IMG/VR virus record: IMGVR_UViG_3300025663_000002
Span: 1 to 64,000 of that record
Length of the DNA stretch: 64,000 nucleotides
Reading direction: 5' to 3' (one strand)
Origin: a virus
Taxonomy: Duplodnaviria; Caudoviricetes
Under the pieces are notes generated by a model. It did no database searches, was not told the DNA's origin, and was given only the letters and a program-made list of their open reading frames with translations. Position numbers and translations under genes: made by a program. Positions 16,117 through 55,794 of this stretch are shown in pieces. Within the stretch, counting starts at the first letter, position 1, and each line of letters starts with the position of its first letter.

Positions 16117-18120
16117 ATGGGAATGTTCAACGATGTTAATGATGCAATGGGGCAAGTTGGTGGTTTACTAAAATCACCTGCGATGTCTTCTGTTGATAAT
16201 ATGAAGAACGCTGCCACAAGTTTAAATGTTACTGCAAACTTAGACCAATATATATTAGAGCAAGGGTTTCCTGGACACGGTAATGCGTTCTATCAGCAGA
16301 TGCAAGAGATTCAGAACCTATCAAATGCATTAGACGAATGTGGTAATTTTGCACAAGACTTAATACAGGCGTCTACCGAGGACTATATTAAGAGTACTGG
16401 TATTCAAGAAGCAGGAAGAGACCTTGCGAATACGTTAGGTCAATATAAAGATGAAATTGATTGTGCCGCAGGATTTGCTACACTATTTGATTCTAAAGGT
16501 ATATTAGACGATGTCTTAGGTATTGGAGACTTGCCTCAAATACAGTCACGTGTACAGCAAATTGTTAAAGACGTAACAAACCCAACAAAACTTGCTAACA
16601 TGATTACTAACCTTGACGCAGTTCAGGGTCTACTAGAACCGTTTAACGATTTTTGTACAGGAATGAAGGACGCATTAAACCAATTAGTTGCAAAAGACTT
16701 AGCGTCTATGAATGCTATTCTAAATAAATTAGCACAGTGGGCAGCTTTTACAAACCTTGCTACTGGAGATCCTTGTGCTTTGGTGAATAATAGTAGGATG
16801 TTGGGAGGAATTACAAGTCCAGTAATGGATGACATCCTAGACTTATATGACGGATTGCTTGATGGTGATGTGGTCGGTGCGGTTGGGGATATCTTTGCCC
16901 CAGATATACCGACAGCACTAATTGGAGGTTCGACACTAACTCAAGTGGGGGCAACCACCGTTCCTTTTGGTGAGTATTTCTCAACTATCGGTACTGATGT
17001 TGGGGGAGGTATTACTGCGAGTATTGGTAATATTGTAAAATCGTCAGGAGAACAACTTAGTGAATTCTTAGGTATGGATGGAGGTTCTTCGGTAACAACA
17101 GAAACTGGAGTTGTGACGACGGTATCGGTAAAACAAATATGGAACGGTTCTGATTGGGTAGACGACTCAGACTCTAGTATTATCTCAGGAATGCAGTCTC
17201 TTTCTGTTGGAGCACTTGCAGGAGACAACTCATTCAACCCAGCATTAGATAACTTTAAAAAGATGAAAGAAGGTGTTGAGTTTGAGTCGTTTAATAATAC
17301 AAATGCAGTTAAAACTATTATTTCTGAGTCATGTAGAGGTGGTGTTGGGTCAAACCAATCTGATTGTTTATCAAGTGGGGGGATGTGGTCTACTTCTAAA
17401 TACTCCCCAACAAACAAAGCAATGTCAGATGCAGCTAAAGGTTTGGGTGTTGCTTCGTTTGGCGATGTTGCGAGAGGTTCTGATTTATTCAACTCTACGA
17501 CCAAGGTTGCAGATTCTACAACAGAAACAGTTTCTGGAGGAAACGTTGATTTGAATTCCGTCGAGAACGGTATTGATAATGATTTGGCAACGGAAGAACC
17601 TTCTGGGTCTGGTGCAGATATACCTTCAAATTCATCAGGTAAGTCAAGGGGAAAAACTCAAAGCACATCAAAATCAATAAATAGGAGTGTAGGAAGACCA
17701 ACGATACCAACATCGTTTACACCAACTCCCCCAGCTGCAAATAGAAGACCAGAACAAGGCAAGACTCCATTTTCAACCCCTTCATATAATTCATCCTCTA
17801 CTGGAGCTAAGGTACAAACTCCAGGTTCTACTAATTCGTTTGAAGATAATATTTCTTCGTTCGACTCTGACGTTAATGCAGTTAAAAATGCAATCAGTTC
17901 TGGTGATTTTTCCAATATAACATCTTGTAGGTGTTATGGAGGAAAGGTGTACGATACAGACTCGAGCTCGTGTGCCGCCCACGGAGGTGTTTGGAAATGT
18001 CAAAAAGGAATATCTGGATTAAAATCAGGAAGTATGAAATCAAACGATATGATAACAAATGCAAGAAACGTTGAATTAAGTTCAGTTCTTCCGACATCGT
18101 CAGCATTTAAGGGGTTATAG
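16117..18120 (+). CDS. Hypothetical 667-aa protein between gp5 and PAAR
   Basis: Long ORF with GGAG SD; helical N-terminal half, S/T/G/P-rich C-terminal half with Cys/Trp modules. Confidence 0.8.
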   Translation: MGMFNDVNDAMGQVGGLLKSPAMSSVDNMKNAATSLNVTANLDQYILEQGFPGHGNAFYQQMQEIQNLSNALDECGNFAQDLIQASTEDYIKSTGIQEAGRDLANTLGQYKDEIDCAAGFATLFDSKGILDDVLGIGDLPQIQSRVQQIVKDVTNPTKLANMITNLDAVQGLLEPFNDFCTGMKDALNQLVAKDLASMNAILNKLAQWAAFTNLATGDPCALVNNSRMLGGITSPVMDDILDLYDGLLDGDVVGAVGDIFAPDIPTALIGGSTLTQVGATTVPFGEYFSTIGTDVGGGITASIGNIVKSSGEQLSEFLGMDGGSSVTTETGVVTTVSVKQIWNGSDWVDDSDSSIISGMQSLSVGALAGDNSFNPALDNFKKMKEGVEFESFNNTNAVKTIISESCRGGVGSNQSDCLSSGGMWSTSKYSPTNKAMSDAAKGLGVASFGDVARGSDLFNSTTKVADSTTETVSGGNVDLNSVENGIDNDLATEEPSGSGADIPSNSSGKSRGKTQSTSKSINRSVGRPTIPTSFTPTPPAANRRPEQGKTPFSTPSYNSSSTGAKVQTPGSTNSFEDNISSFDSDVNAVKNAISSGDFSNITSCRCYGGKVYDTDSSSCAAHGGVWKCQKGISGLKSGSMKSNDMITNARNVELSSVLPTSSAFKGL

Positions 18121-20648: not shown

Positions 20649-23600
20649 ATGTCTAATAAGCAATTCACTGAGTCTCCGGCTAAGTTTCTTTCTATATTTG
20701 TAGAAAGAATGGTTCCCGAATATGTTCGAGAAGACCATCCAATGTTCGTTACATTCATGCAAAAGTATTTTGAATACTTAGAACGTGAAACCGACGTTAA
20801 TGGAGAACTGGGTGAATACAAACAAATATCAGACCTTATTCAAAATGTTGATATTGACCACACATTAGACCAATTCATTCCAGAATTTGAGAAGCAATAT
20901 CTCCATAATATCCCACACGAAGCAATTGGTGCTGAGGTTGAAACCACAGATAAATCATTCCTTACTAAGAACATTAAAGAGTCTTATAAAGAAAAAGGTA
21001 CTAAAAGTGCTTTGGACTTTCTATTCAGACGTGAATTTGATACAGAAGCGTATGTAGCATATCCTAAAGACTTTATGTTAAAAGCATCGGGTTCTATTTG
21101 GTACGAACCTCAATGGTTAGAAGTATCAGAACCAGAAGAAGATGTAAGGAAACTCTATAATAAGAAAGTGATCGGGCAAATTTCTGGTGCAACTGCCTTT
21201 GTAGATATTGAAGAAACTGCGGTTATGCCAGAAATAGAGAAATTACTTTTGACGCAAGTCGAAGGTTCTTTTGTTCAGGGTGAAGAAATTTGGGAAGAAG
21301 TCGGAACTAGTGGACTAACTCCTAATAAATTAACAGTAGTTTCTGATGGCATTATTGCACCTGCTACTTGTTACATTAATGGTGTTGCGTGGAGTACGAC
21401 TTATGGGGCAAACGTTCCACAAACGAAAACTGCATGTGAATCTTTAAAAGAAACAGACAATACAATTAAAACAGCAGTTTGGCTGCCTAATGGTTATTGG
21501 GTCGACTCGGCAGGTTTCTTGTCTTCTGATAGAAAGATGCAGGACAACAATTACTACCAAGACTTTTCTTATGTAATTCGTTCAGACGTTCCTGTACAAG
21601 CATATAGGGACGTATTAAAGAAATTAGTACACCCCGTTGGACTTAAATTATTCGCAGAATATATGTTTGAGACAACTGTTCCTATGGGAACAAAATTACC
21701 TGAAAAATACGCTGCATATCTTATTGCGATATTCTCTTATCTTGATGTTGCGGTTGATATTTACCCTAACGGTAAGTGTTCTGATTATCAAATTACAGAT
21801 GAGATGACATGTAACGATAGTGGAGCAACTTGGACTAGAGGACAAAGTTACCGTACCACTCACCGTAAAACATACGAATGGACTAGACCAGAAACGTTTG
21901 AGTTACAAGAAGATATTACTATTCCTTGGAACCATATGCGTTCGGACGGAACTACCCGTGAAGATATAGTAAACGGAGTTCCTCAAGGAAGCGGTCAAGA
22001 CGAAGTAATATTATCTGGAACGATAATCAATACAACTTTACCTAAAGGTGAAGAACGTTACAGAACAAAAGTTTGGAAATGTTCTGAACCAACAGGTAAC
22101 TACTCTTATGGAAGCGAATCCGAACTACTAGTCGCCAGCACTAATTGTTTTGCGGCTGGAGGAGAGTGGTCACAGCATATTACTGGTTCTAATTATTCGG
22201 ATATGACCGATGAGTGGATTTTCGTTGATAATCAATGGAAACCCGAGAGCATATACACCAAGAAAGAAACTCAAATTGGAGAAGAACATGAAGGGTTTGA
22301 GAAATTCTTAGACCAAGGTTTTGAAGATTATGTATTAGAGATTCTAAAGAAAACTGAAGTAAAATCTGAAATTTTAGAACCATTAGATTGGAATCATCCT
22401 ACAGACCATCTACTTCTTGACGTTACAACAGAACCTAATGTAATCGGTACTCGACTTCATAGTAAGTTATATCAAGTATTCACAATGAATGAAAACATTA
22501 AGTTAGGACTTGATGCTTTCCCTGAAAAATTGATATTGGCATATTATCAGCAAATTAAAATTCTAGACACTGAAGTCCAAGGCGCCTTAGATAATACATT
22601 AAATATACGCAGAACCTTTAAAGGAATAAAAGAATATCAAACAACTAATTCTGTATGTTCAGATCCAACAATAACATCATACACAGAATGTGTTGATGGA
22701 GGAACTTGTTCGGATTCAAATTACAACAACGACGAATATTCTTGTTTAAATGTTGGTTCGTGTTCCAGTGCTGCTGATGGGTTATTTACCGAACTATTAT
22801 GTAAAGGTTCTGGGTTTATATGGACACCACAATCGCCAGAAAACGTTTGGACATCTTCTGGTAATACTTGGACGCACGAGAATGTAGATTGGTTAGGAAC
22901 TTATAACGAAGAATTCAAAGCAACAGACGGTCGTATGATTGGTTGTGAAGTTTGGGAATTATTGGTTGCTAAAGGTCTTGAATCTATCCTTGAATATAAC
23001 TTAAGAATAGTTCAAGTAGAGTCGTATGCTCCTCAACAAAATTACCGTTTCTGGGAACAGAATAGAGAAAATACAATAATTCAATCTATTTACGGTAACA
23101 CGAATGATATTATCGATGCTGTGCATATTGAAGCGTTTGATGTCGACGGAGGAATACGTACACATATGCACGGGGAGGTAGATGGATTTGCCCCTATGGT
23201 CGACACCGTATTAACTAAAGGTGTAGATTTACCTCAAATGGCAGTCGGTGCTTCTGCGTTCCATACTCATTCGTTTGATGGAACAGAATTAAAGAATTTA
23301 TTAGTACACGGAAAGTCAATAGACGCTAGTGGAATTTCATACCAACAAACACGCGATCTATTAAACCGTGAGGCATTTGAAATACCAGATTTCCACGGCG
23401 CTAACTTAGTTTGTGGTGGTATTATGACTCCTCCTCTATGGGGCGATTGGGTTGATTCAGTTCAAGATCCTCGTTATAACGGTGTTGGAGAATGTTTCAA
23501 TTCTATTTACGAAAATGAGACAGATTGTGTAGGTTTCTACGGTGATCCTATGTTCTGGATGAGTCCTTCGTGTTCCGACCAAGCAAGTGCTGATGAAGCA

Positions 23601-26600
23601 ACGTGTCATAATGTTGGTCATTCTTGGGGATACTTTACATTAGCAGAACTTCCTCCTATGAAAGGACACGTTTCATATTTCGTTAAAGGAGAAGTAGTAG
23701 ATAGACAACGTGGACGTACTGCAGACCCTCTTACTAGAGAACAAGCAAGACAACTAATTGATGGTGATATTGCTTCTGTAACACTTTACGATAACGTCGG
23801 AGCTTTAGATAAAGAAGGAAACCCTACATACGACGAAAATGATATTACTATTGGTGGAACAATTACAAATATTCGTGGAGAAATTACTAGTGGTCACTAT
23901 CACGAATATGCTGTAACATATGATGCAGATTGGAAAACTAAACAAGATTGGCGAGGCAACAATTTAACGCACGGGTTCGTTTACACACCAGTAACTACGT
24001 TCTTGTGTTTTAACTATAAACCAGATTTACCTGTTGACGAGACAATCATGGGTGGTATGGATTTCACTGGTCAACCATGGCCACAAAATGTATTCATGGA
24101 TGTTCCAGATTCATACGTTGGAGGATTCTTAAATAATCCAGATATCACATTACAACACAATCAAGTATGGGCTGAAGATTTAAACCCTAATGTAGATTGG
24201 GTTGAAATATATTCATCTAACTTTATTCAAGATGTTCCTGGTTCGGGTACGATTGACGACTTGATTGGTGCAGAACAAGTTGGGGTTAATACTGATATTG
24301 CTACAATCAAAGCATATCCAAGAATGAATGAAGATTACATCGCATTGATAGACCAATCAGGTTTCATTTATTTACAGAAGGTGTCTGGTGAATGTTCAGA
24401 TAATGCTTGGGGTAATAAACAAGATTGTTTAGACCTAGCAGGTATTTGTTCCAATACAACATTTAATAACAATCAAATTTTATGTGAAAGTTCTGGTACT
24501 TGTTCAGACATCACATTTACTGACGAAACTCTTTGTTTGGTTGATGGTACTTGTTCAGACGGACTACTTCTTACGCAATCTACGTGTGAAAGTGCGGGCA
24601 CTTGTTCAGATGTTTCATATACAGCAGAAAATATATGCACTTCGTCTGGTGAAACTTGGACTCCCGCGGGTAACGTTTGGTCCACAATAAATAGTTGGAG
24701 TTTAGAGACTTGGACTCCTGCAACAAACACGTGGACAGTTCCTGATACAGCACCTTTATTGTTCATGGACTTGACTTCATTACAACATGTTATTGGATTA
24801 GGTCCGTTTGGGAATTACGACGAACGTGGTGTACTAGGTTTAGCATTCCATCCAGATTATGTCAATAATGGTAAATTCTACGTTTACTATATGACAGAGC
24901 AAGGTGGAGGTACTGGATCGTTTGGATATCCGTTATCTACATCTGTTATTTCTGAATTCACTGCTACTTTTGGTGGTAATTGGGACGTTGCTGATGTCAC
25001 TTCAGAAAGAATTCTACTAGAAATCCCTCAACCAGATATGAACCACAACGGTGGTGAGTTAGAATTCGGTCCAGATGGATACTTATACATCGGTTTAGGT
25101 GATGGTGGTAATGCTGGCGACACATCAACAACAACAGGTCATGGAGGTCATGGTGATTACGGTAATGCTCAGAATCCAACAAACCTATTAGGCAACATTT
25201 TAAGAATTGATGTAACGGAAGATACTGTTAATAGTATGCCGTACACAATTCCTGCGGATAACCCATTCATTAATTCAATTTATAAAGAAGGTCAGGCAGA
25301 AGCACAACCATTCAGACCAGAAATATATGCATACGGATTTAGAAATCCGTGGAGATTTTCTTTCGATACAGACGATAGATTGTGGTGTGCAGACGTAGGA
25401 CAGAACAAATTTGAAGAGGTAAACATTGTTGAAAAGGGTGGCAACTATGGTTGGAGAGTAATGGAATCATATCATTACTACGAAGAACAGCAGTCTGTAA
25501 TCGACCAAATGGCAATTGACTTAGGGTACACCACTACATTAGAGTATTTAAGCGATTTGAAGAAACCTATCCATGAATATTCTCACGGAACTGGTATTTC
25601 TGTCTTAGGTGGGTTTGTTTATCGTGGCACAGAAGTTCCAGAATTGACAGGTAAGTATATATTTGGAGATTGGGGTAAAACTTGGGAAGGCACTAGTGGA
25701 CAACTATTTGCTTTAGAAGAAACCGTAGCAGGACTTGCTGCGAACTTTAATGTGTTGCCAAATGCAGTTAATGGGGCGACGCACAGTCATACATTAACAT
25801 TAACCACAGCAGAAGTTGACTTCTTACAAGCAAACCCAGGAAGTCCAGTAGTAACAATACAAACAGATTCAGTGCATGCCGAGTTTTATGTTCATACGTT
25901 TACGGTGACGTATAGTTCTGCTGATGGATTGTTCCATATCATTGGACAAACAAACCCAGAAGGTCATGACTTATTAGAGTTCGATGGTTGGTCTGACGAT
26001 GTTGGATATAATAGAAGGTCTTTATCTTTCTGGGATCCTGTTACGGAAATTGTAACATTAACCACATTCGACGAATCTCTTTTAACTATGGGCGAAGATA
26101 CACAAGGTGAGATTTATTTCTCAACTAGAGTTGGTATTGGCACATTCAGACCGCCTGGTATTGGACCGAATAATACTAAAATCTTTAAGATTACAGACTC
26201 TTATAGTTCAGTTGACGTTCCAAACGCTCCAGCTCAAATTCCAGTAACACAAAAAGCTCATACACATGGATATAAAGTAACATACAACTTCACCGAACAA
26301 ATGTTTGAGGTTGTTGAAATTTCTGATATTGAAATGTCAACGTGGGACGCATTTTGGCCAATATGGGAGATTAATGATCCAGCTTCGCACGTCCATCCAG
26401 TTATTACTGCATGGTCCCATGCAGTTGATGTTGAAATACCATTAGGTTCTTCTGCTGGTTGGCACTTCGACGAGGTTACTCAAGAATGGGGACCATACGA
26501 TATTGGTGCTGATACTGCTTGGGCGCCTCCTTCTGTTGATACTGGTGGTTATGTTACAATTGACGTTGCACCAAACCTTGCGGTGTCAATGGCAAATGAA

Positions 26601-28796
26601 TATGGAGTTGAAGGACATTTCCATTACTTCGACGATGTTATTTTAGATTCTTTCGGTACTAATTATGGCAGACGATCTAACTCATTAAGTCGGGTTGGTG
26701 CAGAAATTCTCGCAAACCAAGAAGAAGGTTCTGTTCATACTTTATATTCTTCAATCGTAGACGACGGAACTCGACGACATTATCATGGTTATGATATTAC
26801 ATATTCTTCTGCACAACGTACATTTGTATTAGAAGAAACTGCTGAGTGGGAAGAGGGTGTACGTGATACTGGTGCGTATATATTAGTTGGAACTCAAACC
26901 CACGAACATCCAACTTCAGTTGACGGACTACTAACGTCTGTTGGTTGGAACGGTGACCCATCATTTGAAGCACCATCGGCTGTCATCGGTCAGGCAAATG
27001 ACTGGGACAATCTTAATGGGTCTTTAATTCCTCATCAACATTACTTTAATGATACTGGGTTAGACCAAGTTGGACCTAATTCTGACAGAACTGCAGTTTA
27101 TTTATCAAACACGCAAACAACCGACTTAATTTCGGGTGCTATTGAGAATGTTACATTATATTCTTCAATTTACCAAAACCATTACCATGAGTACAATGTA
27201 ACGTTCGACTCATTAAATGGTTCTTTAGTTATACAAGAAGTAGAACAGTGGGTATCTGCTGACAATCAACAATACTTTATTAGAACTCCTGCTGATCACA
27301 GGCATCCAGTTTCCGTAGATGGTGTTCCTAGTGGAACTGGATATAATCAGATGATATCTATAAATAGTTTGCCTATATTTGATTCTCCAGGTTTCCCTTA
27401 TCCTGGTGGATCACATCCTCACTTCTTCAACGGCACAGTTGTTGGTCCATTCTCGGACGGCACTATTGAATATTCTGTTGGGTTAAGTGTTGATCAATCG
27501 TATAAGTTGATTGATGGTATAATTAATCAAGTTACACTTTATGACTCTATTTCTGGTGGACATTTTCACTCGTATGTTGTTAAGTGGGACGATTTGAATA
27601 ATATATTCTATTGTACAAGTTCAGTTACATACGTTCGTGGTGGAATTGAAGACGCAACACAAGATACTGGTAAATATTACCTATCGCAAATTCTAGGACC
27701 ATCTGAAGGGTTGCATTGGCACAACTTAACGATTGACTGGAATCCAAATAATGAGGCAGTAGCACAGCAAAGTGGTGGTTCTATTTACCAAACAAACATA
27801 GCAAGTTCATACGAAACGTTAGTCAATCCTCCTTCAGTTGAAGTTAATGTTAATACAACAGCATTATCTCCTGTATCTACAAGTTACCCAGATACACCGA
27901 GTGTTGGTGACAACACAACCATTATAACGTACAGTGATTTGACAACTACGACAACGACGACAACGACTATCACAAACGTAACAGAAACTATTACAACTAA
28001 TATTTCAGACGGAACAAGTTCTTCTACAGTATTACCTCCAGTAGTTTCAACGGATGTAGATGTTGTGCAATCAACTCTGACGATTGAAAATGAACTCAAA
28101 CGTAAGACATTTGTTAATAATATACTACAAGTTAATAATGCACCAACTATATGGATTGGCAATACATTTATTGACGGTGAAGGTTCTCATGATCATTTAC
28201 TATACCAAGGTTGTTCTTTAGATACACAAGGACCGTTCTCGGGTAGAATGTGTGAACCAATTACCTTGGCAACTGCTAACTTATTAATTAATGCGCAAGA
28301 CCCTACTTTTGGAACAATTTTTTATGATTCTCCCAACGGCAACTTGTCGCATTATCATAGTTACTCGTTGAAGTTTAACCCTTTCTTAGGTGACGACGGA
28401 ACGTTCCTTGCTTTACCAATTAGTCAGTTTGATAGATTCCCTGGATCGGGTACGAACGTTCATAAGTTTATGTTAAGTGGTGGTTTCCACACCCATACAT
28501 ATTTCTTAACTGAGGCAGAATATGCTACGTTAGTTGGAGGAGGTTTGGTTCAAACCTCCCAAGCAGACGCTATTCACGCAGAACTATATACGCACACTTT
28601 AGTAATTAGACTTGTAAATTTCCAATATCAAATTGTATCTCAGTCGTCGGACTTTGATAACCACGATACCGTAATATATCAAGGCATGGTTGCTGAGGGT
28701 GGACAATGGATTCAAAATCAACAAGGTTCTGGACTAGGTGACCATATTCATTCTACTACGATAGACGAATCGAATATATGGCCTGTTCCAGCATAG
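20649..28796 (+). CDS. 7: Giant baseplate wedge protein gp7 with inserted Cys/Trp arrays, PQQ-type sugar dehydrogenase domain and His-rich repeats
   Basis: gp7 core (FVTFMQKYFEYLE, KGTKSALDFLF, YYQDFSYVIRS, LVHPVG) in the first ~340 aa; GSDH motifs later. Confidence 0.85.
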   Translation: MSNKQFTESPAKFLSIFVERMVPEYVREDHPMFVTFMQKYFEYLERETDVNGELGEYKQISDLIQNVDIDHTLDQFIPEFEKQYLHNIPHEAIGAEVETTDKSFLTKNIKESYKEKGTKSALDFLFRREFDTEAYVAYPKDFMLKASGSIWYEPQWLEVSEPEEDVRKLYNKKVIGQISGATAFVDIEETAVMPEIEKLLLTQVEGSFVQGEEIWEEVGTSGLTPNKLTVVSDGIIAPATCYINGVAWSTTYGANVPQTKTACESLKETDNTIKTAVWLPNGYWVDSAGFLSSDRKMQDNNYYQDFSYVIRSDVPVQAYRDVLKKLVHPVGLKLFAEYMFETTVPMGTKLPEKYAAYLIAIFSYLDVAVDIYPNGKCSDYQITDEMTCNDSGATWTRGQSYRTTHRKTYEWTRPETFELQEDITIPWNHMRSDGTTREDIVNGVPQGSGQDEVILSGTIINTTLPKGEERYRTKVWKCSEPTGNYSYGSESELLVASTNCFAAGGEWSQHITGSNYSDMTDEWIFVDNQWKPESIYTKKETQIGEEHEGFEKFLDQGFEDYVLEILKKTEVKSEILEPLDWNHPTDHLLLDVTTEPNVIGTRLHSKLYQVFTMNENIKLGLDAFPEKLILAYYQQIKILDTEVQGALDNTLNIRRTFKGIKEYQTTNSVCSDPTITSYTECVDGGTCSDSNYNNDEYSCLNVGSCSSAADGLFTELLCKGSGFIWTPQSPENVWTSSGNTWTHENVDWLGTYNEEFKATDGRMIGCEVWELLVAKGLESILEYNLRIVQVESYAPQQNYRFWEQNRENTIIQSIYGNTNDIIDAVHIEAFDVDGGIRTHMHGEVDGFAPMVDTVLTKGVDLPQMAVGASAFHTHSFDGTELKNLLVHGKSIDASGISYQQTRDLLNREAFEIPDFHGANLVCGGIMTPPLWGDWVDSVQDPRYNGVGECFNSIYENETDCVGFYGDPMFWMSPSCSDQASADEATCHNVGHSWGYFTLAELPPMKGHVSYFVKGEVVDRQRGRTADPLTREQARQLIDGDIASVTLYDNVGALDKEGNPTYDENDITIGGTITNIRGEITSGHYHEYAVTYDADWKTKQDWRGNNLTHGFVYTPVTTFLCFNYKPDLPVDETIMGGMDFTGQPWPQNVFMDVPDSYVGGFLNNPDITLQHNQVWAEDLNPNVDWVEIYSSNFIQDVPGSGTIDDLIGAEQVGVNTDIATIKAYPRMNEDYIALIDQSGFIYLQKVSGECSDNAWGNKQDCLDLAGICSNTTFNNNQILCESSGTCSDITFTDETLCLVDGTCSDGLLLTQSTCESAGTCSDVSYTAENICTSSGETWTPAGNVWSTINSWSLETWTPATNTWTVPDTAPLLFMDLTSLQHVIGLGPFGNYDERGVLGLAFHPDYVNNGKFYVYYMTEQGGGTGSFGYPLSTSVISEFTATFGGNWDVADVTSERILLEIPQPDMNHNGGELEFGPDGYLYIGLGDGGNAGDTSTTTGHGGHGDYGNAQNPTNLLGNILRIDVTEDTVNSMPYTIPADNPFINSIYKEGQAEAQPFRPEIYAYGFRNPWRFSFDTDDRLWCADVGQNKFEEVNIVEKGGNYGWRVMESYHYYEEQQSVIDQMAIDLGYTTTLEYLSDLKKPIHEYSHGTGISVLGGFVYRGTEVPELTGKYIFGDWGKTWEGTSGQLFALEETVAGLAANFNVLPNAVNGATHSHTLTLTTAEVDFLQANPGSPVVTIQTDSVHAEFYVHTFTVTYSSADGLFHIIGQTNPEGHDLLEFDGWSDDVGYNRRSLSFWDPVTEIVTLTTFDESLLTMGEDTQGEIYFSTRVGIGTFRPPGIGPNNTKIFKITDSYSSVDVPNAPAQIPVTQKAHTHGYKVTYNFTEQMFEVVEISDIEMSTWDAFWPIWEINDPASHVHPVITAWSHAVDVEIPLGSSAGWHFDEVTQEWGPYDIGADTAWAPPSVDTGGYVTIDVAPNLAVSMANEYGVEGHFHYFDDVILDSFGTNYGRRSNSLSRVGAEILANQEEGSVHTLYSSIVDDGTRRHYHGYDITYSSAQRTFVLEETAEWEEGVRDTGAYILVGTQTHEHPTSVDGLLTSVGWNGDPSFEAPSAVIGQANDWDNLNGSLIPHQHYFNDTGLDQVGPNSDRTAVYLSNTQTTDLISGAIENVTLYSSIYQNHYHEYNVTFDSLNGSLVIQEVEQWVSADNQQYFIRTPADHRHPVSVDGVPSGTGYNQMISINSLPIFDSPGFPYPGGSHPHFFNGTVVGPFSDGTIEYSVGLSVDQSYKLIDGIINQVTLYDSISGGHFHSYVVKWDDLNNIFYCTSSVTYVRGGIEDATQDTGKYYLSQILGPSEGLHWHNLTIDWNPNNEAVAQQSGGSIYQTNIASSYETLVNPPSVEVNVNTTALSPVSTSYPDTPSVGDNTTIITYSDLTTTTTTTTTITNVTETITTNISDGTSSSTVLPPVVSTDVDVVQSTLTIENELKRKTFVNNILQVNNAPTIWIGNTFIDGEGSHDHLLYQGCSLDTQGPFSGRMCEPITLATANLLINAQDPTFGTIFYDSPNGNLSHYHSYSLKFNPFLGDDGTFLALPISQFDRFPGSGTNVHKFMLSGGFHTHTYFLTEAEYATLVGGGLVQTSQADAIHAELYTHTLVIRLVNFQYQIVSQSSDFDNHDTVIYQGMVAEGGQWIQNQQGSGLGDHIHSTTIDESNIWPVPA
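22656..22892 (+). repeat. Three CS..C modules followed by three W-T closers (protein-level)
   Basis: CSDPTITSYTEC / CSDSNYNNDEYSC / CSSAADGLFTELLC, then FIWTP, NVWTS, NTWTH. Confidence 0.75.
24387..24740 (+). repeat. Five G-x-CS[DN]-x8-9-C modules (51-54 bp period) followed by five Trp closers
   Basis: GECSD, GICSN, GTCSD x3; DNA repeat gg[tc]acttgttcaga; then WTP, WST, WSL, WTP, WTV. Confidence 0.85.
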
Positions 28797-36001: not shown

Positions 36002-39000
36002 ATGTCACATTATACAAACTCATCGTTTACATTAGACGAATTATTAAAAATCGACCAACAGAAGGAAGACTTTTTAGATTCTTTGACCATTAAACTTTCA
36101 GACCCAGCATTGGGAATTAAAGACTTAGCATTGATGCTGAAATCTTTGGAGATTATGGATAATATGGAGCATTTAAACGCTTACCGTCAATTCATTATCA
36201 ACCTTGCTAATAAGTCTGCTGACTTTACCACTCCTAACGAACTAGTAAACAACGGTGACATTTCTATTGAATATATTACAAGCAATATTGTACAAAACCC
36301 TAATTTTGATTCTGACGCATTAGAAGTTGAAATCGCCAAATCTTCAAACTTCGAAGTAGGAACTGACATTGCAATGCCTTGGGCAAACGGAACTACGTAT
36401 AAATTCGATACATTAATTGCAGAAGGAACTAATATTATCTCAGGAATTTCTGACGGTAATGGCGCGACAGCAGTTTGGTTTAATTCTACACTAAAACCTA
36501 ATACACAATACAAATTATCATATGATTTAGTTATTAATGATGTTGGTTGGGACTTACCTAACGGTGCTAAGAACATGGTGGACGTTCTTTCTGAAGATGA
36601 AATGGTATTCTCGGAAAGTGGTGGTGGACCAGACCCAATAACATATGTTGTATCTGTAGTTGAAGATGCAAATATGATATTACCTACTTGTGATGGAGTC
36701 ATTGTACCATTCGACACCTCAATCCCGGATTATAACAACGCGTTTCCTGCTATGGAACTCGCTTGTACTGGTTCTGGTGGAGTTTGGGTAGAAGGTAACA
36801 TTAACGACCCACTTACACAAAATCACGACATTATTCCATACAACGTAGTTGCTCGTGAAGGTGATACATTAATCTTTACAAACCCTTCGACAAACTACTT
36901 ATTACACAATGCAGTATCCGACGACAACATCTCATTTACTTCTCCTGATATGCCGCCTGGATCTAATTGGTCTTGGGTTGTTGACGGATACCATGATATT
37001 TACTTCCATTGTACTTTCCATCCATTAGAAGAAGGAAGGTTACTTACTAAAACTGACCATAGATACGTTTACAATATCGACCACGGGTTGAATAAAGGTG
37101 ATACAGTTAGAATGCCTATCAACTATGGTACTATGGAAGAACTACCTTCTTTATCAAATTCATACTTCATTAGTTTGCAAATGGACAACCCATGTACCTC
37201 AATTGGTGGTGTTGGTAGTCAAACGAACATAGAATCGTTATACCACAACTTATCTATTGGTGACGTTGTTTCATTCCAATCTGGACCAGAAAACGTCACA
37301 GATACATCAAGTTCGGTTGATGTAACATTTTCGGGAGGAAACGCCACACTTGAGGCACAGGCGTCGGTTGTTATTCAAAATGGTATTGTAACATCAATTG
37401 CGTTAGAAGATAACGGAACTTGTTCAAACACAATATACTCAGACGAAGCAACTTGTGTTGCCAACTCAGAAACTTGGACACCACAATTAGCGGTAGGTGC
37501 TGGATATGAATCTGCTCCATTATTATTTATCGCCGGTGGTGGCGGTTCTGGAGCTACTGCAATAGCAACATACGACGGTCGTGTAGTTTCTACTATCAAT
37601 ATAAACTACGGTGGTGGTGGTTATACATCACAACCTACTGTACAATTTACAGGTGGTGACCCAACTACTCCTGCAACAGCAACTGCCAATTATGACGCAG
37701 CCACTGGGCAAATTAACAGCATTACTATTACGGACTCTGGTGTTGGATACCAAACAACCCCAACCATTACTATTGTTGGTGGTAATCCAACCACAGCAGC
37801 TCTGTTTGAATGTTCTATATCTGGTTCTATATCTGCGGTTACATTAACAGCAGGTGGTTCTGGTTATGGTTCAGACGGTTCGGTGATTTTTGGAGAAAAG
37901 GCATGGGAAACGTTTGAAATTTCTGCTGTTGTAAAAGGACAAGAACAAGTTGACATTTTCCTAGACGACGTGAACCAAATGGGACATATTCATACAGTCA
38001 CTATGACTACTGCACAGTTTGATAATGTTAAGTTAGGAAATAACGAAGTTATAGCAACGAACGCAGATAATACAGGACACTCTCACGATTGTACATTTAC
38101 TTGGGACTTAACTCTAAACGGAGGACTTGGCGGAATTTGGTTAGTCGGAATGACTGGCAACCACACGCACGGATTAGATGTATATAACGAAGTATCTGGT
38201 GGTACTAAAATTGAATTAGTAAACTTCGGTCATTATCATGAAATTCTGATCACCGAAGCAGAAGAAGCAACACTAAAGGCAGGTTTGCTAATTGTGACTG
38301 GTGATAACCCAGACGGAACTACTGCGCATGACGGAACTGGTGTTGTTATGACTAAAACGTCAGACTTTGGTACTTCAGATCCTCAGCATTTCCATACAGT
38401 TGAATTTGGTTGCGTTGATGCAGTAAATGATGTTTACGCAATTACTGTAATTGATCAACACATCCATGACTTTGGTCGTGTTTGGTATCCTGGATCGTTT
38501 AGTTTCTCAATATCACAATGGAACGACGGTTCTTCTAGTGCTGGAAGTAACCCAGCCTTTATTGAACTGCCTTTTGCGGATATTCCTGGTTATGTTAAGA
38601 AAGAAAAGGGTATATATTCTATAAATCACGGGTTGGTTCAAGGTCAACGAATACATTTCCAGAACATTTTTAATGGAATTCATCATGGTAATACAAACTA
38701 TTGGGTAGAATCTGTAATAGACGCAGATAATGTTTCTGTTACAGAAACAATTATTTATCCTCTTGCAGGTGCTCCAGGAACTACTCCTACTATTCATAAT
38801 GTTATTGAAGAGTACACGGTTGTTGCAGACTTAGCATCGTACAGATTCCAAGTTGAAAGAGATATTACAAACCACATTGGTTCTGCTTACGTAGAAGGTG
38901 TGCAGATTGAATGGTCTAGACCTAACACAATTGAATCAAACTTACACGGATTAGTTGTTGGTGATGTTGTACAGTTGCCTTCTGGTCCTCAACCTTACAC

Positions 39001-42000
39001 TCCATCAGAACTTCCTGGTGCTATGCGTGACCATACAGTTATTGCTATTGGTGATGGTTATGGTCCTACTGAACATATGGAAATTATTGTTGATACGCAA
39101 ACTACTATTACGTTTGCTGATCCAAACCTTTCTGTTGTTGAAGGTGCTCAGAACTCTCCGTGGTATTGGTCTTGGTGGGACAGAACCGCTGCATCATATG
39201 CTCCGTATCAAAGAGATGAAGCAGTTTACCAAAGTTTTGGTGACGTAACACTATACGACAGTATTACTGGTGAAAAGGCTGGTTTTGAATTATTCCGTGG
39301 TGGTACATACAAATTTACAAATAATGCATGGAACCCTTCTGGACATATTACACAGATTGACCCTTCAACGGGCAATTTAGTTCCTATGTACATGCACGCT
39401 GCTGGTATTAAAGCAATTCCAGGTGCAGGTTGGGACAACCTAGTACAAGCAGGTATGACACATAGTGCATGCCAAGATGGTGTATCAGGCCTCGACCATT
39501 ATCATTGTGTATCAATGAGAGCGAACCACGGTCTAACTATCGTTTCTGGTGACCATAACCCGTTTGTTAATACTACCGAAGAGCCTGGCACGTGGGTTGG
39601 TCCCGAACCTTTCCCAGTTTGTATGGGACTTGGTGGTTGGTGTGAAGAACTAGACGTTGACGGTTGGTACTATAATGGTATTGACGATGAGTCTGTGTGT
39701 TCTGCACTTAACCCAACGGGCGATGTTGGTTTGGCACAATGGAGAGGTCCACAATTTATTGGTAACTTCTCTAAAGAATTTACATGGACAGTTCCTGAAG
39801 ACTTTGGTCTTACTGGTGCTGACGGTGTTACTGGACTTGGTCCGTTTGTTGCTCCAGGTGAGTTAAACTTAGCATACCACGTTGAATCATACCAAGGACT
39901 ATATAAATTTGATAAGTCTGGTATGATTGAAGGAACAAACCCTATTATTAACATATACCGTGGTGGAGTTTACAGATTTAGACTTAATGCTCCTGGTCAC
40001 CCTTTCTACATCACAACCGACAACGGATCTAACTTTACTCCTGGTTCATACTTCGGTGAGTACACTAACGGTGTTGTTGGTTCTCGAGCTGTTACTGGTT
40101 ACGGACCAAACGAAGGTGTTACTGGTCAATTTGGTGACGACGACGTTGAAGTATTAGAATTTACAGTTCCTATGGACGCACCCGATACGTTATATTATCA
40201 ATGTGAGTTCCATTCATCTATGATTGGTACGTTAAATGTTATAGATTTACCTATTGTTGATGCAGGTGATGAAATTGTAGTTTACTACCATCACGGACAA
40301 GATAACATGTGGACTCCATTATGGATTAAGGACAAGATTGTTGTAGACAACGGTTCTGGTCCAAACTTCTTCCAAGTACAACCTATTCCTGAGAATTCGT
40401 TCCCAGTGAAGGGAACTCAGGCGGATGTTACTGGATTAGGTAACTTGATTACTGGTTATGGTGCAGGAGCAATCCCTAAAGCACAGGCAATGGATATTGA
40501 ATTCGGTTCACTTTCATACTTAGACCCAGTCGCCTTGACCGCCGGAATTGGTCAAGAGACATTCTTAACCACAACTGGACTTGTTGGTACTAGTAAATTC
40601 TATATCTCATTAGATGATACAGAACGTTCTAATATTGAAATGACTAATGTGTTGTTACAAGAAGCACCTTGGTCGGAAAATGGTTCTTTCGAAATTAGTG
40701 CAGGTCAGGCATTTACTACTGACGCGGTTGTTGGTGGTAATATTGAACAAATCGTAACAGGTTCTGTCATTGACGGTGACCAATATGAAGTTGGTTATGA
40801 AATCATTGAAGGTTTTGTTGATCAATTTGGTGGTAATTCTGGTACTGTTCAACTGTCGTTAATTGGTGACACTACGGTTACTGGTAACTTTAACACAGAC
40901 GCAGGAATGTACTCTGAAACGTTAATTGCTCCAGTTAATACTACACATATGAAACTTACTGCAAGTGGTGCTGGTAAAGTAGATAACGTTTCACTGAAGC
41001 AACGTGTATCAGGACAAAATGCTTGGTATCTTGGTGATGGTTGGACTGTTAATACTGATGGTCAAGCGTATTGCGACGGTTCTGTTCAAGGACGTACTGA
41101 AATCAATCAGACTGTTAATATCCAAGAAGGTAAATTGTATGAAGTTAAATATACTTTAGCAAATACTGACCCAGAAGGTGATGGTTCTCAAGGACGTTTA
41201 CAATTAGCATTGGGTACTAACCCATACAACTTAATTTCTAATTGGAATTTTGATGCTAGTGGTATTAACATCAATTGGAATTCACCAGGAAGTGCATACA
41301 CAATAGATAGTGCAAATGCTAGGTTGAATTTTGAAAACTCAAATGCCGACGGAATTACTTACACTTTCACTGATAACTTAAATAACATAGTTGATTATGA
41401 AATTACTATGGAAGTGTTATCAGTAACAGGTACGGTTCATAATTTCCAAGTTGGACCTGGACCTCAGGCAAACCATTATCATACTATCGATTTGCAACAG
41501 TCGCAGTATGACTTTATGATTGCCAACGAAGGTTCTTCTCTTACATTGCAACAGTCTGATACTACTCACGCTGCTTATTATACGCATACGTTCTCTCTTG
41601 CGTTTGATAGCACAGTAGAAACTTGTACTATGCAATTGGGTTACTCGCAAGATAATATGTGTTTCCTTAATGACGGTACTCCAGATCCATCAAATACGAC
41701 ATCTACGGATTGTTTATCTGCTGGAAATACTTGGATTCCAACACAACCTAACTACGACTATTCTTGTTCGTTTGTTGATTTTGATAACCTACAAAACGGT
41801 ATTACTAATCAATTAACAATGACAGAATTGACGCAAGACGGTGGTGCCGGATTACCTGCTTCTGATGTTCATAATATTGTTCTTGGATTTGCTAATGGAG
41901 TTCTAACGGTAATATCAGACGAAAATGATATTGCATATGACGAAATTACATTACTTACAGCAGATTCTGGTATTATTATTACTTCTCAGACGTTCTTAGA

Positions 42001-54915: not shown

Positions 54916-55794
54916 ATGGCAAAGGTACAATCAGCAACAGAATTAAAAGAATACGCATACCGTAGATTGGGTTATCCAAAGGTAGAAATACAAGTGGACG
55001 ATACTCAGGCAATGGATCGTATTGACGATGCTGTTCAATTATTCGTAGAACGACATTTTGATGGTGTTGAAGAAAAGTATATCACTATCACGTTTGATGC
55101 TACAGATGAAGCAAATCAGTATATCACTATGCCAGATGATGTGATTGCCGTTACTCGCATTTACGAACCTGGAAGATATTCTTCAGAAGCAATGAGTGAT
55201 GTTAGATATAAAATTATGTTTGACCAAATGTTCGATATGACTAAAGTTAGTATGCAATACTACGAAATGACTATGCAGAACCTTTCTATGATATCTGATT
55301 ACTTTAATCCAGACAGAACATTCACATTCAACAAAGCAAACAATCGTTTATATTCTCATTCTGGAACAATCTTAGGTCCATCTTGTAAAGTTAAAGGTGT
55401 TTGTTCTGATGTTGCGTTTACGACTGATGCTACTTGTACTGCTGGTGCAGGAACTTGGACAGCATATTCTTCTGAGTCAGTTTGCGAAGCAGCTGGGTCA
55501 TTGTGGTACGAAGGAAGTAAAATGATGCTTCGTGGTTTTGTTGGTTTAAATCCAGACGAAACTGCTGGCTATGCTCTTGATGTATATAACGATGAGTGGA
55601 TGAAGAAGTACACTACTGCTCTTATTAAGAAGCAGTGGGGTTCAAATATGAAACAATTTGACGGAATGCCATTACCTGGAGGAATCGTTGTTAATGGACA
55701 ACAACTCTGGGATGAAGCAAACGAAGAAATTCTAAGATTAGAAGAACAATTCTCGCTTGAGTATGAAATGCCAACTAACTTTTTGGTAGGTTAA
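54916..55794 (+). CDS. 13: Neck protein gp13
   Basis: ELKEYAYRRLGYPKVEIQVDD, WMKKYTTALIKKQWGSNM, LPGGIVVNG. Confidence 0.95.
   Translation: MAKVQSATELKEYAYRRLGYPKVEIQVDDTQAMDRIDDAVQLFVERHFDGVEEKYITITFDATDEANQYITMPDDVIAVTRIYEPGRYSSEAMSDVRYKIMFDQMFDMTKVSMQYYEMTMQNLSMISDYFNPDRTFTFNKANNRLYSHSGTILGPSCKVKGVCSDVAFTTDATCTAGAGTWTAYSSESVCEAAGSLWYEGSKMMLRGFVGLNPDETAGYALDVYNDEWMKKYTTALIKKQWGSNMKQFDGMPLPGGIVVNGQQLWDEANEEILRLEEQFSLEYEMPTNFLVG

What the first reader, a model, noticed from the sequence alone, without database searches (positions are those of the whole stretch)
22656..24740. Nested Cys/Trp architecture: n disulfide-type modules followed by exactly n Trp closers
Seen: the single unit elsewhere is C-S-D-x7-8-C-x3-G-x2-W-T. 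At 24387-24740 five Cys modules are followed by five W segments (WTP, WST, WSL, WTP, WTV); at 22656-22892 three modules are followed by three (WTP, WTS, WTH). Inference: each unit was inserted into the G-x-x-W loop of the previous one, like nested parentheses, building an out-and-back stalk whose length is tunable. This is not a simple tandem repeat.
Basis: partly seen in the sequence, partly recalled or inferred. Interest (0 to 1): 0.75.

Follow-up and report, generated by a model that had tools for sequence, protein, structure and literature searches.

The report
Nested Cys-head/Trp-closer stalk repeat
A giant phage baseplate protein carries an undescribed mini-repeat written like nested brackets (n cysteine "heads", then n tryptophan "closers"), which most likely folds into an out-and-back stalk of adjustable length that can be spliced into surface loops of many unrelated secreted proteins.

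Summary
In the 2715-aa baseplate wedge protein (20649-28796, +), 5 Cys-x11-12-Cys heads are followed by 5 Trp closers (aa 1249-1362). Three heads are followed by 3 closers plus one extra basal Trp (aa 670-748).

The head = closer rule holds in unrelated proteins for n = 1 to 17. My parser finds 36 of 73 multi-head arrays exactly equal, against 12 expected from shuffling (p <= 5e-5). Most misses are parsing failures.

At the 5+5 site, a hairpin of the HHIP/GSDH-type propeller, 26 orthologues have 0 units and two have 1 unit. That single unit matches the window's outermost head and last closer. The extra 4+4 is therefore one contiguous inner block.

AlphaFold2 models the 3+3 array confidently (pLDDT 84). 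When closer 3 and the C flank are removed, only head 1 and the N flank lose their strands. This is what nested pairing predicts. I could not see coordinates, and the 5+5 array itself was not folded.

Pfam, NCBIfam, PDB sequence searches, Foldseek, VIA-align and the paper library return nothing for the array. Arrays also sit inside TadG VWA and arginine deiminase domains, and occur in pilin-like and T9SS proteins.

Function is inferred: a disulfide-stapled, length-tunable stalk. The scan has not reported it on other DNA.

The parts
20649..28796 (+). Host gene: 2715-aa baseplate wedge protein (gp7-like) with an embedded HHIP/GSDH-type beta-propeller
   Evidence: PHROG 17744 'baseplate wedge subunit' E=1e-51. 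Pfam PF23786 at aa 294-338 and GSDH PF07995 at aa 1391-1673, E=7e-32.
24393..24650 (+). Five heads of the 5+5 array (aa 1249-1334), period 17-18 aa, each C-S-[DN]-x8-9-C-x3-4-G
   Evidence: The DNA copies are only about 74% alike, so these are old duplications.
24651..24734 (+). Five Trp closers of the 5+5 array (aa 1335-1362; Trp at 1337, 1344, 1350, 1355, 1362)
   Evidence: The last closer plus 'VPDTAP' matches the single closer of orthologue L001.
24447..24719 (+). Contiguous inner 4+4 block (heads 2-5 plus closers 1-4, aa 1267-1357). It is absent from the 86%-identical orthologues L001 and L024, which keep only the outer unit.
24354..24392 (+). N-side strand of the propeller blade-1 hairpin (…DQSGFIYLQKVSGE) that carries the array
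   Evidence: 26 array-less orthologues join this strand to '…LLFMDL' through a 5-8-residue turn. The array-less orthologue L002 aligns to the solved HHIP propeller 2wg3 across this site.
24735..24800 (+). C-side strand of the same hairpin (TVPDTAPLLFMDLTSLQHVIGL)
22656..22814 (+). Three heads of the 3+3 array (aa 670-722)
   Evidence: In the AF2 model each head is a short strand followed by a short helix that ends at the second Cys, with pLDDT about 90.
22815..22877 (+). Three Trp closers of the 3+3 array (Trp at aa 725, 734, 741)
   Evidence: strands E66-68, E75-77 and E82-83 of the model.
22878..22898 (+). Basal cysteine-free rung: the fourth Trp (aa 748, 'VDWL'). It is modelled as a strand, probably paired with the N flank 'EYQT' (nt 22632-22643).
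   Evidence: Model strands E87-90 and E3-6. E3-6 disappears when the C side is removed. The rung is conserved in L001 and P0028.
21777..21836 (+). Single unit (aa 377-396), present only in the window and in L001/L024 among the orthologues
23493..23627 (+). Two units in plain tandem series ()() (aa 949-993). Orthologues have 2 to 4 units here.
37400..37480 (+). Single unit (…GTCSNTIYSDEATCVANSETWTP…) in the giant fibre gene 36002-43009; coordinates approximate

Best explanation
The arrays belong to an undescribed split mini-module of about 23 residues.

Anatomy of one unit:
- The N-terminal 'head' is G-x-C-S-D-x2-aromatic-x5-C-x3-G. It is modelled as a short beta-strand, a turn, and a 1.5-turn helix that ends at the second Cys. 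It is probably closed by a Cys1-Cys2 disulfide.
- The C-terminal 'closer' is x-W-[TS], a short beta-strand.
- The closer strand pairs with the head strand. The Trp probably packs on the disulfide and on the head's aromatic residue.

How arrays form:
- The turn between head and closer tolerates insertion of another complete unit. Arrays therefore read head^n closer^n.
- Head i pairs with closer n+1-i. The result is a two-armed, out-and-back rod.
- One arm has a 17-residue period and the return arm a 5- or 7-residue period. This suggests roughly 1.7-2.3 nm per unit, which is my own estimate.

Consequences:
- Both ends of the rod are adjacent, so it can be grafted into a surface hairpin of any host domain without disturbing that domain. 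Here the hosts are blade 1 of the baseplate protein's HHIP/GSDH-type propeller and a second site.
- Any balanced inner block is contiguous in sequence. One insertion or deletion can therefore lengthen or shorten the stalk while keeping it foldable.
- In the phage it most likely acts as a rigid projecting stalk or spacer on the outer face of the baseplate, with a length that varies between close relatives.

Shown: the counts, the insertion sites, the 0/1/5 variation among orthologues, and the AlphaFold2 behaviour.
Inferred: the disulfides, the Trp packing, the dimensions and the biological role.
For: (a) Count rule.
- Window arrays: 5+5 and 3+3.
- Read by eye from printed sequences: P0003 4+4, P0005 6+6, P0006 2+2 and 3+3; P0011 8+8, with closers W,W,F,W,W,F,W,W; L023 9+9; P0059 17 heads against 16 W plus 1 F.
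- P0010 is 9+9 once its six CGA codons are read as Trp. The genome reads TGA as Gly, and Absconditabacteria are predicted to read CGA and CGG as Trp (PMC8629427).
- Parser result: 36 of 73 arrays exact and 58 of 73 within one, against a shuffle mean of 12.0; p <= 5e-5; Spearman 0.55. Of 130 single heads, 122 have exactly one Trp.
- A sample chosen by heads only (DNA pattern scan) gave 9/9, 5/5, 5/5 and 2/2. It also gave several n+1 cases and mixed bracket words.

(b) The two ends are adjacent.
- 26 of 28 orthologues have a tight turn at the 5+5 site and two have one unit.
- That site lies inside the propeller, as aligned to the solved structure 2wg3.
- Arrays interrupt the VWA domain in TadG-like proteins. 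In P0041, VWA_2 covers 146-198, the array covers 225-320 and VWA covers 375-507. An array also interrupts the arginine deiminase domain in P0008.
- P0011 has an extra Cys on each flank, placed where it could clamp the base.

(c) Nested correspondence.
- L001's single head CSDNTSVNKADC and closer TWAVPDTAP match the window's head 1 and closer 5.

(d) Structure prediction.
- The 3+3 array has mean pLDDT 83.7, about 90 across the array. It shows 4 strands in the N half and 4 in the C half, with one helix per head.
- The truncated query lacked closer 3 and the C flank. It lost strands E3-6 and E10-11, and pLDDT of the first two 10-residue blocks fell from 69/91 to 43/66. Heads 2 and 3 and closers 1 and 2 kept their strands.

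(e) No known family or fold matches: Pfam and NCBIfam, PDB sequences, Foldseek against PDB and BFVD, and VIA-align with 0 of 48,161 chains at Z >= 2.
Against: - Head-closer contacts are inferred from DSSP and pLDDT differences, not read from a contact map.
- The alignment behind the models has only 16 sequences. The 5+5 array itself was not folded.
- About half of the automatically parsed arrays are not exactly balanced. Most of these are explained by Phe/Tyr closers, irregular heads, a Trp belonging to the next domain, or truncated contigs. Some are not explained: P0065 has 4 heads and 7 Trp, and P0031 has 5 and 4.
- P0004 has about 30 heads with almost no Trp closers, so heads can apparently also form one-way arrays.
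- Phage virion proteins fold in a reducing cytoplasm, so disulfides would have to form late or after lysis.
- Covariation between head spacing and closer spacing is weak (nested r = +0.23, sequential r = -0.17).
- No functional data exist.
Confidence: 0.72

Rival explanations
1. Two independent tandem repeats lie side by side: a Cys-loop repeat and a Trp-rich repeat. They form separate structural elements, for example a head rod plus a Trp-rich sheet. Their copy numbers are similar only because the two elements must have similar lengths, without one-to-one nested pairing.
For: P0004 has head-only arrays. Many arrays are n against n+1 rather than exactly equal. DNA repeats inside the head and closer regions look like separate block duplications.
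Against: Exact equality from n = 1 to 17 across unrelated host proteins. Single units have exactly one Trp at a fixed distance in 122 of 130 cases. The truncation model loses only head 1 and the N flank. The array sits in a tight hairpin. The contiguous inner 4+4 block differs between the window and L001.
Confidence: 0.12
2. The cysteines are metal ligands rather than disulfide partners, for example Zn or Fe shared between neighbouring heads. The array would then be a metal-stapled rod.
For: The phage assembles in a reducing cytoplasm. The same protein has many HxH motifs (earlier notes; not tested by me).
Against: Each head has only two Cys, and odd head numbers (1, 3, 5, 9, 17) are common. 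Four-Cys sites shared by pairs of heads cannot therefore be the rule. Host proteins elsewhere are secreted or surface proteins: pilins, T9SS cargo, TadG. The two Cys of a head bracket one strand-helix element in the model, which fits a local staple.
Confidence: 0.08
3. The pattern has no structural meaning. It is a compositionally biased, fast-evolving linker in which Cys and Trp motifs accumulated by slippage.
For: Copy number varies between close relatives. tblastn with the low-complexity filter on finds nothing among GenBank phages.
Against: Cys and Trp columns are invariant across 16 distant arrays. The AF2 model is confident. DNA copies are diverged, about 74% alike, yet the motif is preserved. 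The same grammar appears in phages, candidate-phyla bacteria, T9SS cargo and Tad pilus proteins.
Confidence: 0.03

Closest known systems
Thrombospondin type-1 repeat (TSR, Pfam PF00090)
   Same: A small, elongated extracellular module in which a row of Trp on one strand is stacked against partner strands and capped by disulfides. It contains a 'CS' motif and W-x-x-W-like spacing. (From my own knowledge of the family.)
   Different: In a TSR the Trp strand comes first, six Cys are shared across the module, and an Arg ladder intercalates. The unit is a fixed module of about 60 aa repeated in tandem, not head^n closer^n. Pfam gives no TSP_1 hit here, and no fold match was found.
Antiparallel coiled-coil hairpin stalks (dynein stalk, SMC arms, seryl-tRNA synthetase arm)
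   Same: These are out-and-back rods. The outgoing and returning arms must contain matched numbers of repeats. Both ends are adjacent and the tip is displayed at a distance. (Own knowledge.)
   Different: Both arms there are the same heptad repeat and are helical. Here the arms are different half-units (17-residue Cys heads against 5-7-residue Trp closers) that pair through strands and are probably disulfide-stapled.
Variable-length tandem-repeat stalks of surface proteins ('periscope proteins': SasG, Rib, SHIRT; Whelan et al. 2021, cited from memory)
   Same: Copy number differs between close relatives and sets how far something projects from a surface.
   Different: Those are one-way tandem arrays of whole domains, with near-identical DNA repeats, placed between domains. 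Here the array is nested, returns to its start, is inserted inside host domains, and its DNA copies are diverged.
Disulfide-stapled beta-helix antifreeze protein of Tenebrio (12-residue TCT repeats)
   Same: A short repeat with one internal disulfide per unit that builds a rigid rod. (Own knowledge.)
   Different: That is a simple tandem solenoid with no Trp return arm and a different period and motif. No fold match was found.
HHIP/GSDH six-bladed beta-propeller (host domain only)
   Same: The domain that carries the 5+5 array matches Pfam GSDH (E=7e-32) and the solved HHIP propeller (E=3e-25).
   Different: Known members have a short hairpin where the window has the 114-residue array.

Membership tests
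Thrombospondin type-1 repeat (PF00090) | The Pfam model matches, and the order is WxxWxxW strand first, then CSxTCG, with six Cys and an Arg ladder | tested here: not met
   No PF00090 hit at E <= 0.1. Heads precede the Trp segment, there are two Cys per unit, and there is no conserved Arg.
Any curated protein family covering the array (Pfam-A 2025, NCBIfam 20.0) | A significant HMM match over aa 660-750 or aa 1240-1375 | tested here: not met
   No family for the array segments, and none over the arrays of 18 further proteins.
Any solved fold (PDB) or predicted viral fold (BFVD) | A structural match to the 3+3 model | tested here: not met
   Foldseek PDB best E = 5.4. VIA-align found 0 of 48,161 chains at Z >= 2. 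BFVD best E = 0.5. The tools' own notes say that a missing match does not prove a new fold.
Simple tandem repeat (one-way stalk, periscope type) | Whole units follow each other head to tail | tested here: not met
   For the two arrays of the finding, the heads are contiguous and the closers are contiguous. A true tandem series of the same unit does exist at aa 949-993.
Simple tandem repeat (one-way stalk, periscope type) | Copy number varies among close relatives | tested here: met
   0, 1 or 5 units at the propeller hairpin, and 2 to 4 units at the aa 949 site.
Proposed new family: nested Cys-head/Trp-closer repeat | Number of heads equals number of aromatic closers | tested here: met
   n = 1-9 and n = 17. 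36 of 73 exact and 58 of 73 within one, against 12 expected; p <= 5e-5. Exceptions: P0004, P0065, P0031.
Proposed new family: nested Cys-head/Trp-closer repeat | N and C termini of the array are adjacent (inserted in loops of host domains) | tested here: met
   Propeller hairpin, VWA and arginine deiminase domains split by arrays, and flank strands in the model.
Proposed new family: nested Cys-head/Trp-closer repeat | Head i contacts closer n+1-i | tested here: inconclusive
   The AF2 truncation supports it indirectly, since only head 1 and the N flank lose their strands. The L001 comparison also supports it. No coordinates or contact map were available, and there is no experiment.
Proposed new family: nested Cys-head/Trp-closer repeat | Intra-head Cys1-Cys2 disulfide | not testable with these tools
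   The Cys pairs are invariant and odd head numbers are common. Bonding needs mass spectrometry or a structure.
Phage baseplate wedge protein (whole gene) | N-terminal wedge domain matches the family models | tested here: met
   PHROG 17744 E=1e-51. PF23786 scores 29.6 bits against a cut-off of 27. tblastn hits genes annotated as baseplate wedge in T4-like phages.

The most novel reading that the evidence does not exclude
This is a new class of protein repeat, with two properties I know of in no described family.

- Its grammar is that of balanced brackets: head^n closer^n, with concatenation and nesting freely mixed. This differs from tandem repetition.
- It is a self-contained, loop-insertable stalk with two unlike arms. 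Its length changes in one step by insertion or deletion of any inner balanced block.

It has spread across phages, candidate-phyla bacteria, Bacteroidota-type T9SS cargo and Tad or type IV pilus proteins as a portable 'extension rod'.
Probability: 0.55. Interest if true: 0.8.

Novelty: new variant of a known kind. Interest (0 to 1): 0.72.

Why it matters
Protein repeats are classified as tandem arrays. A repeat whose two half-units are separated and nested would be a new architecture, with matched counts up to 17.

It would also offer a natural scaffold. The rod is disulfide-stapled, its length can be set in steps of one unit, and it can be inserted into a surface loop because its two ends meet.

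For phage biology, it identifies a fast-changing projecting element on the baseplate. The same hairpin carries 0, 1 or 5 units in close relatives, and this may affect how the virion contacts the cell surface.

For annotation, the family has no Pfam or NCBIfam model, and it splits host domains (VWA, arginine deiminase, propeller) so that they are hard to recognise.

The strict need for Trp at closer positions also gave an independent protein-level indication that CGA is read as Trp in a TGA=Gly genome.

Tried and rejected
Searches and computations that gave nothing:
- tblastn of both arrays against 50,697 GenBank phage records: no match, with the low-complexity filter on.
- Megablast of the gene: no match.
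- ESM Atlas: no usable hit.
- phmmer against PDB sequences: only chance-level rows.
- Foldseek against PDB and BFVD, and VIA-align wide: nothing.
I therefore have no named-organism census.
- The listing of cluster members gave no organism names.
- Five literature searches, including motif strings, found no description.
- Covariation of head spacing with closer spacing is too weak to decide: nested r = +0.23, sequential r = -0.17.
- Pfam does not cover the N-side strand of the hairpin even in array-less orthologues. The insertion site was placed by alignment to the solved HHIP propeller instead.

Readings I rejected:
- Sequential pairing (i with i), because of the truncation result and the canonical spacing between the last head and the first closer.
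- Paired-head metal sites, because odd head numbers are common.
- Recent slippage, because the DNA copies are only about 74% alike.


Full report
WHAT IS THERE

The finding lies in one long gene, 20649-28796 on the + strand, encoding 2715 aa.
- The N terminus matches phage baseplate wedge families: PHROG 17744 at E=1e-51 and Pfam PF23786.
- Residues 1391-1673 match the glucose/sorbosone dehydrogenase (GSDH) beta-propeller, E=7e-32.
- The surrounding genes are T4-like virion genes.
- The nearest named relatives of the wedge domain are T4-like phages of marine and soil bacteria, at 22-36% identity.
- The assembly held for this window is a single 78-kb contig.

THE OBSERVATION

The 5+5 array:
- Five heads of the form C-S-[DN]-x8-9-C-x3-4-G occupy aa 1249-1334, with a 17-18-residue period.
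- They are followed directly by five Trp at aa 1337, 1344, 1350, 1355 and 1362.

The 3+3 array:
- Three heads occupy aa 670-722.
- They are followed by Trp at aa 725, 734 and 741.
It is conserved in the orthologues L001 and P0028. In the model it lies in a flank strand. It behaves like a cysteine-free basal rung.

Other copies in the same gene:
- Single units are at aa 377 and aa 975.
- Two units stand in plain tandem at aa 949-993.

Given the protein's own composition, five Trp in 28 residues has P = 3e-4, and ten Cys in 86 residues has P = 1e-7.

ARE THE COUNTS LINKED ELSEWHERE?

Where the data came from:
- A word-indexed search gave five giant proteins.
- An exhaustive phmmer search of 1.84 billion representatives gave 64 proteins at E <= 1e-3.

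Counts read by eye from printed sequences:
- P0006: 2+2 and 3+3.
- P0003: 4+4.
- P0014: 5 heads with closers W,W,Y,W,W.
- P0005 and P0008: 6+6.
- P0012: 7 heads with closers W,W,W,W,F,F,W.
- P0011: 8 heads with closers W,W,F,W,W,F,W,W, plus one extra Cys on each flank.
- L023: 9 heads with seven Trp, one Phe and one Tyr.
- P0053: 9+9, followed by a Trp that belongs to the next domain.
- P0059: 17 heads with sixteen Trp and one Phe.

The case of P0010:
- It first looked like a counter-example, with 9 heads, 3 Trp and then six Arg at closer positions.
- Its contig translates to the recorded protein only with TGA read as Gly.
- All six 'Arg' are CGA codons.
- Absconditabacteria, which read TGA as Gly, are predicted to read CGA and CGG as Trp (Shulgina and Eddy 2021, PMC8629427).
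- Read that way, P0010 is 9+9.

Heuristic parser:
- 36 of 73 multi-head arrays are exactly balanced and 58 of 73 are within one.
- Shuffling gives a mean of 12.0 exact; p <= 5e-5. Spearman correlation is 0.55.
- Of 130 single heads that are followed by a closer, 122 have exactly one Trp.
- Most misses are parsing failures: irregular heads that split an array, a Trp of the next domain, or truncated contigs.

Sample chosen by heads only:
- The similarity search could favour arrays that resemble the query, so I also took a sample from a DNA pattern for two consecutive C-S-D heads in viral contigs.
- The 15 in-frame arrays include 9/9, 5/5, 5/5 and 2/2, and several n+1 cases.
- They also include mixed words. 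L106 reads ((()) ).

Real exceptions:
- P0004 has about 30 heads and almost no closers.
- P0065 has 4 heads and 7 Trp, and P0031 has 5 and 4.

WHERE THE ARRAYS SIT

Twenty-eight orthologous loci were fetched from viral metagenome contigs.

The site of the 5+5 array:
- 26 orthologues have a tight turn: …DQSGxIxLMNENTGTQTLxxDLxSLQHVIGLG.
- Two orthologues (L001 and L024, 86% identical) have exactly one unit: GE-CSDNTSVNKADC-VTNLS-TW-AVPDTAP.
- The window reads GE-CSDNAWGNKQDC-LDLAG-[heads 2-5, closers 1-4]-TW-TVPDTAP.
- L001's head therefore corresponds to the window's first head, and L001's closer to the window's last closer.
- The additional four units form one contiguous block, aa 1267-1357. 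A single insertion or deletion converts 1+1 into 5+5.
- An array-less orthologue aligns to the solved Hedgehog-interacting-protein propeller (2wg3, E=3e-25) straight across the site. The array is therefore an insertion into a hairpin inside blade 1, and its two ends must be close together.

Other sites in the gene:
- The aa 377 unit and the 3+3 array are present only in the window's nearest relatives.
- The tandem site at aa 949 has 2 to 4 units.
- Other orthologues carry 3+3 (L013, L014) or 9+9 (L023) arrays at different sites.

Outside phages:
- Arrays interrupt host domains. In the TadG-like protein P0041, VWA_2 covers 146-198, the array covers 225-320 and VWA covers 375-507.
- A protein-arginine deiminase domain is split by a 6+6 array in P0008.
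- Arrays also occur in pilin-like proteins with an N-terminal methylation motif, in a T9SS cargo protein, in a MopE/MAM protein and in a NosD beta-helix protein.

STRUCTURE PREDICTION

I aligned sixteen 3+3 arrays. The Cys and Trp columns are invariant.

Full-length model of window aa 660-760 by AlphaFold2:
- Mean pLDDT is 83.7, about 90 through the array.
- Each head is a 2-3-residue strand, a turn and a 5-6-residue helix that contains the second Cys.
- Each closer is a short strand.
- The N flank (E3-6) and the C flank (E87-90) are strands.

The same alignment was used with a query that ends after closer 2.
- Strands E3-6 (N flank) and E10-11 (head 1) disappeared.
- pLDDT of the first two 10-residue blocks fell from 69 and 91 to 43 and 66.
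- Head 2 (E27-28), head 3 (E44-46), closer 1 (E66-68) and closer 2 (E75-76) were kept.

This is what nested pairing predicts: closer 3 pairs with head 1, and the C flank pairs with the N flank. It is the opposite of same-order pairing. It also does not fit a sheet made of heads alone.

The model has no structural neighbour:
- Foldseek against the PDB gives a best E of 5.4.
- VIA-align finds none of 48,161 chains at Z >= 2.
- BFVD gives a best E of 0.5.
This suits a thin elongated shape, although a missing match does not prove a new fold.

HOW IT MOST LIKELY WORKS

The unit is a split mini-domain. The head is closed by a Cys1-Cys2 staple. The closer strand pairs with the head strand and brings a Trp onto it.

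The turn between head and closer accepts another whole unit. The result is a two-armed rod that runs out and back.

Periods are strikingly regular: 17 residues for heads and 5 or 7 for closers. If the return arm is extended, this suggests about 1.7-2.3 nm per unit. That figure is my own estimate and is not measured.

Two properties follow from the nesting:
- The ends of the rod are adjacent, so it can be inserted into any exposed hairpin.
- Every balanced inner block is contiguous, so the length can change in one mutational step without loss of balance.

In the baseplate protein the arrays are probably rigid projections from outward-facing domains. They differ between close relatives, which suggests a dispensable, adaptable or neutral decoration rather than a core assembly element.

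Still inferred and untested: the disulfides, the Trp packing, the dimensions and the role. One reservation is that phage proteins fold in a reducing cytoplasm.

COMPARISON WITH KNOWN THINGS

- No Pfam or NCBIfam model covers the arrays.
- No PDB sequence matches.
- Five searches of the paper library found no description.
- In spirit it resembles thrombospondin type-1 repeats (a Trp ladder plus disulfides). It also resembles antiparallel coiled-coil stalks (matched outgoing and returning arms) and variable-length tandem stalks of surface proteins.
- It fails the defining features of each of these; see the membership rows.
- I file it as a new variant of the known kind 'length-variable repeat stalk or loop-inserted arm'. 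I know of no precedent for the bracket-like grammar with two unlike half-units.

LIMITS

- Only two structure jobs were available, and both were used on the 3+3 array.
- The alignment behind the models is shallow, with 16 sequences.
- Counts rest on a heuristic parser plus reading by eye.
- The taxonomic spread is known only from domain context and from one named assembly.
The scan has not reported it on other DNA.

Noticed in passing
L029:3001-6050 (protein P0010, assembly GCA_041657585.1): In a gene that translates only with TGA read as Gly (68 TGA codons), six consecutive Trp-closer positions are CGA codons. This fits the CGA/CGG-to-Trp reassignment predicted for Absconditabacteria (PMC8629427). 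Read that way, the array becomes 9 heads and 9 Trp.
   Followed up: partly
window 54916-55794 (+), around aa 150-200: The sequence …SC-KVKGV-[CSDVAFTTDATC-TAGAG-TWT]-AYSSESV-C-EAAGS-LW… looks like a complete unit inserted inside the Cys loop of another head. This would be a second kind of nesting.
   Followed up: no
window 36002-43009 (+) around aa 474; window 16117-18120 (+) C terminus: The giant fibre carries a single canonical unit (GTCSNTIYSDEATCVANSETWTP). The 667-aa protein ends with a variant (C-x-C-YGGKVYDTDSSS-C-AAHGG-VW-K-C).
   Followed up: no
window 21369-21520 (about aa 241-290) and loci L005-L023: A Cys-bracketed loop (CYINGVAW…KTAC…TAVWLPNGYW) is short in the window. In most orthologues it holds a domain of about 150 aa, and in L023 a 9+9 array. 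It appears to be another permissive insertion point.
   Followed up: partly
window 23493-23627 (aa 949-993); L001, L015, L027: A plain tandem series of the same unit varies from 2 to 4 copies among orthologues. In L015 and L027 an unrelated insert of about 180 aa sits between two units.
   Followed up: partly
window 24216-25748 (aa 1190-1700): The best solved relative of the embedded propeller is vertebrate Hedgehog-interacting protein (2wg3, E=3e-25 for the orthologue L002). This is far ahead of the bacterial PQQ glucose dehydrogenases (about 1e-12).
   Followed up: no
P0004 (1651 aa, NCBI metagenome protein), aa 540-1330: About 30 consecutive Cys heads have almost no Trp closers, on either side of a PA14 domain. 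Heads can apparently also build one-way arrays, or the closers here have degenerated to Tyr and Phe.
   Followed up: partly
29 balanced arrays: The head period is almost always 17 residues and the closer period is 5 or 7. All are odd numbers, which hints that successive units alternate sides along the rod.
   Followed up: no
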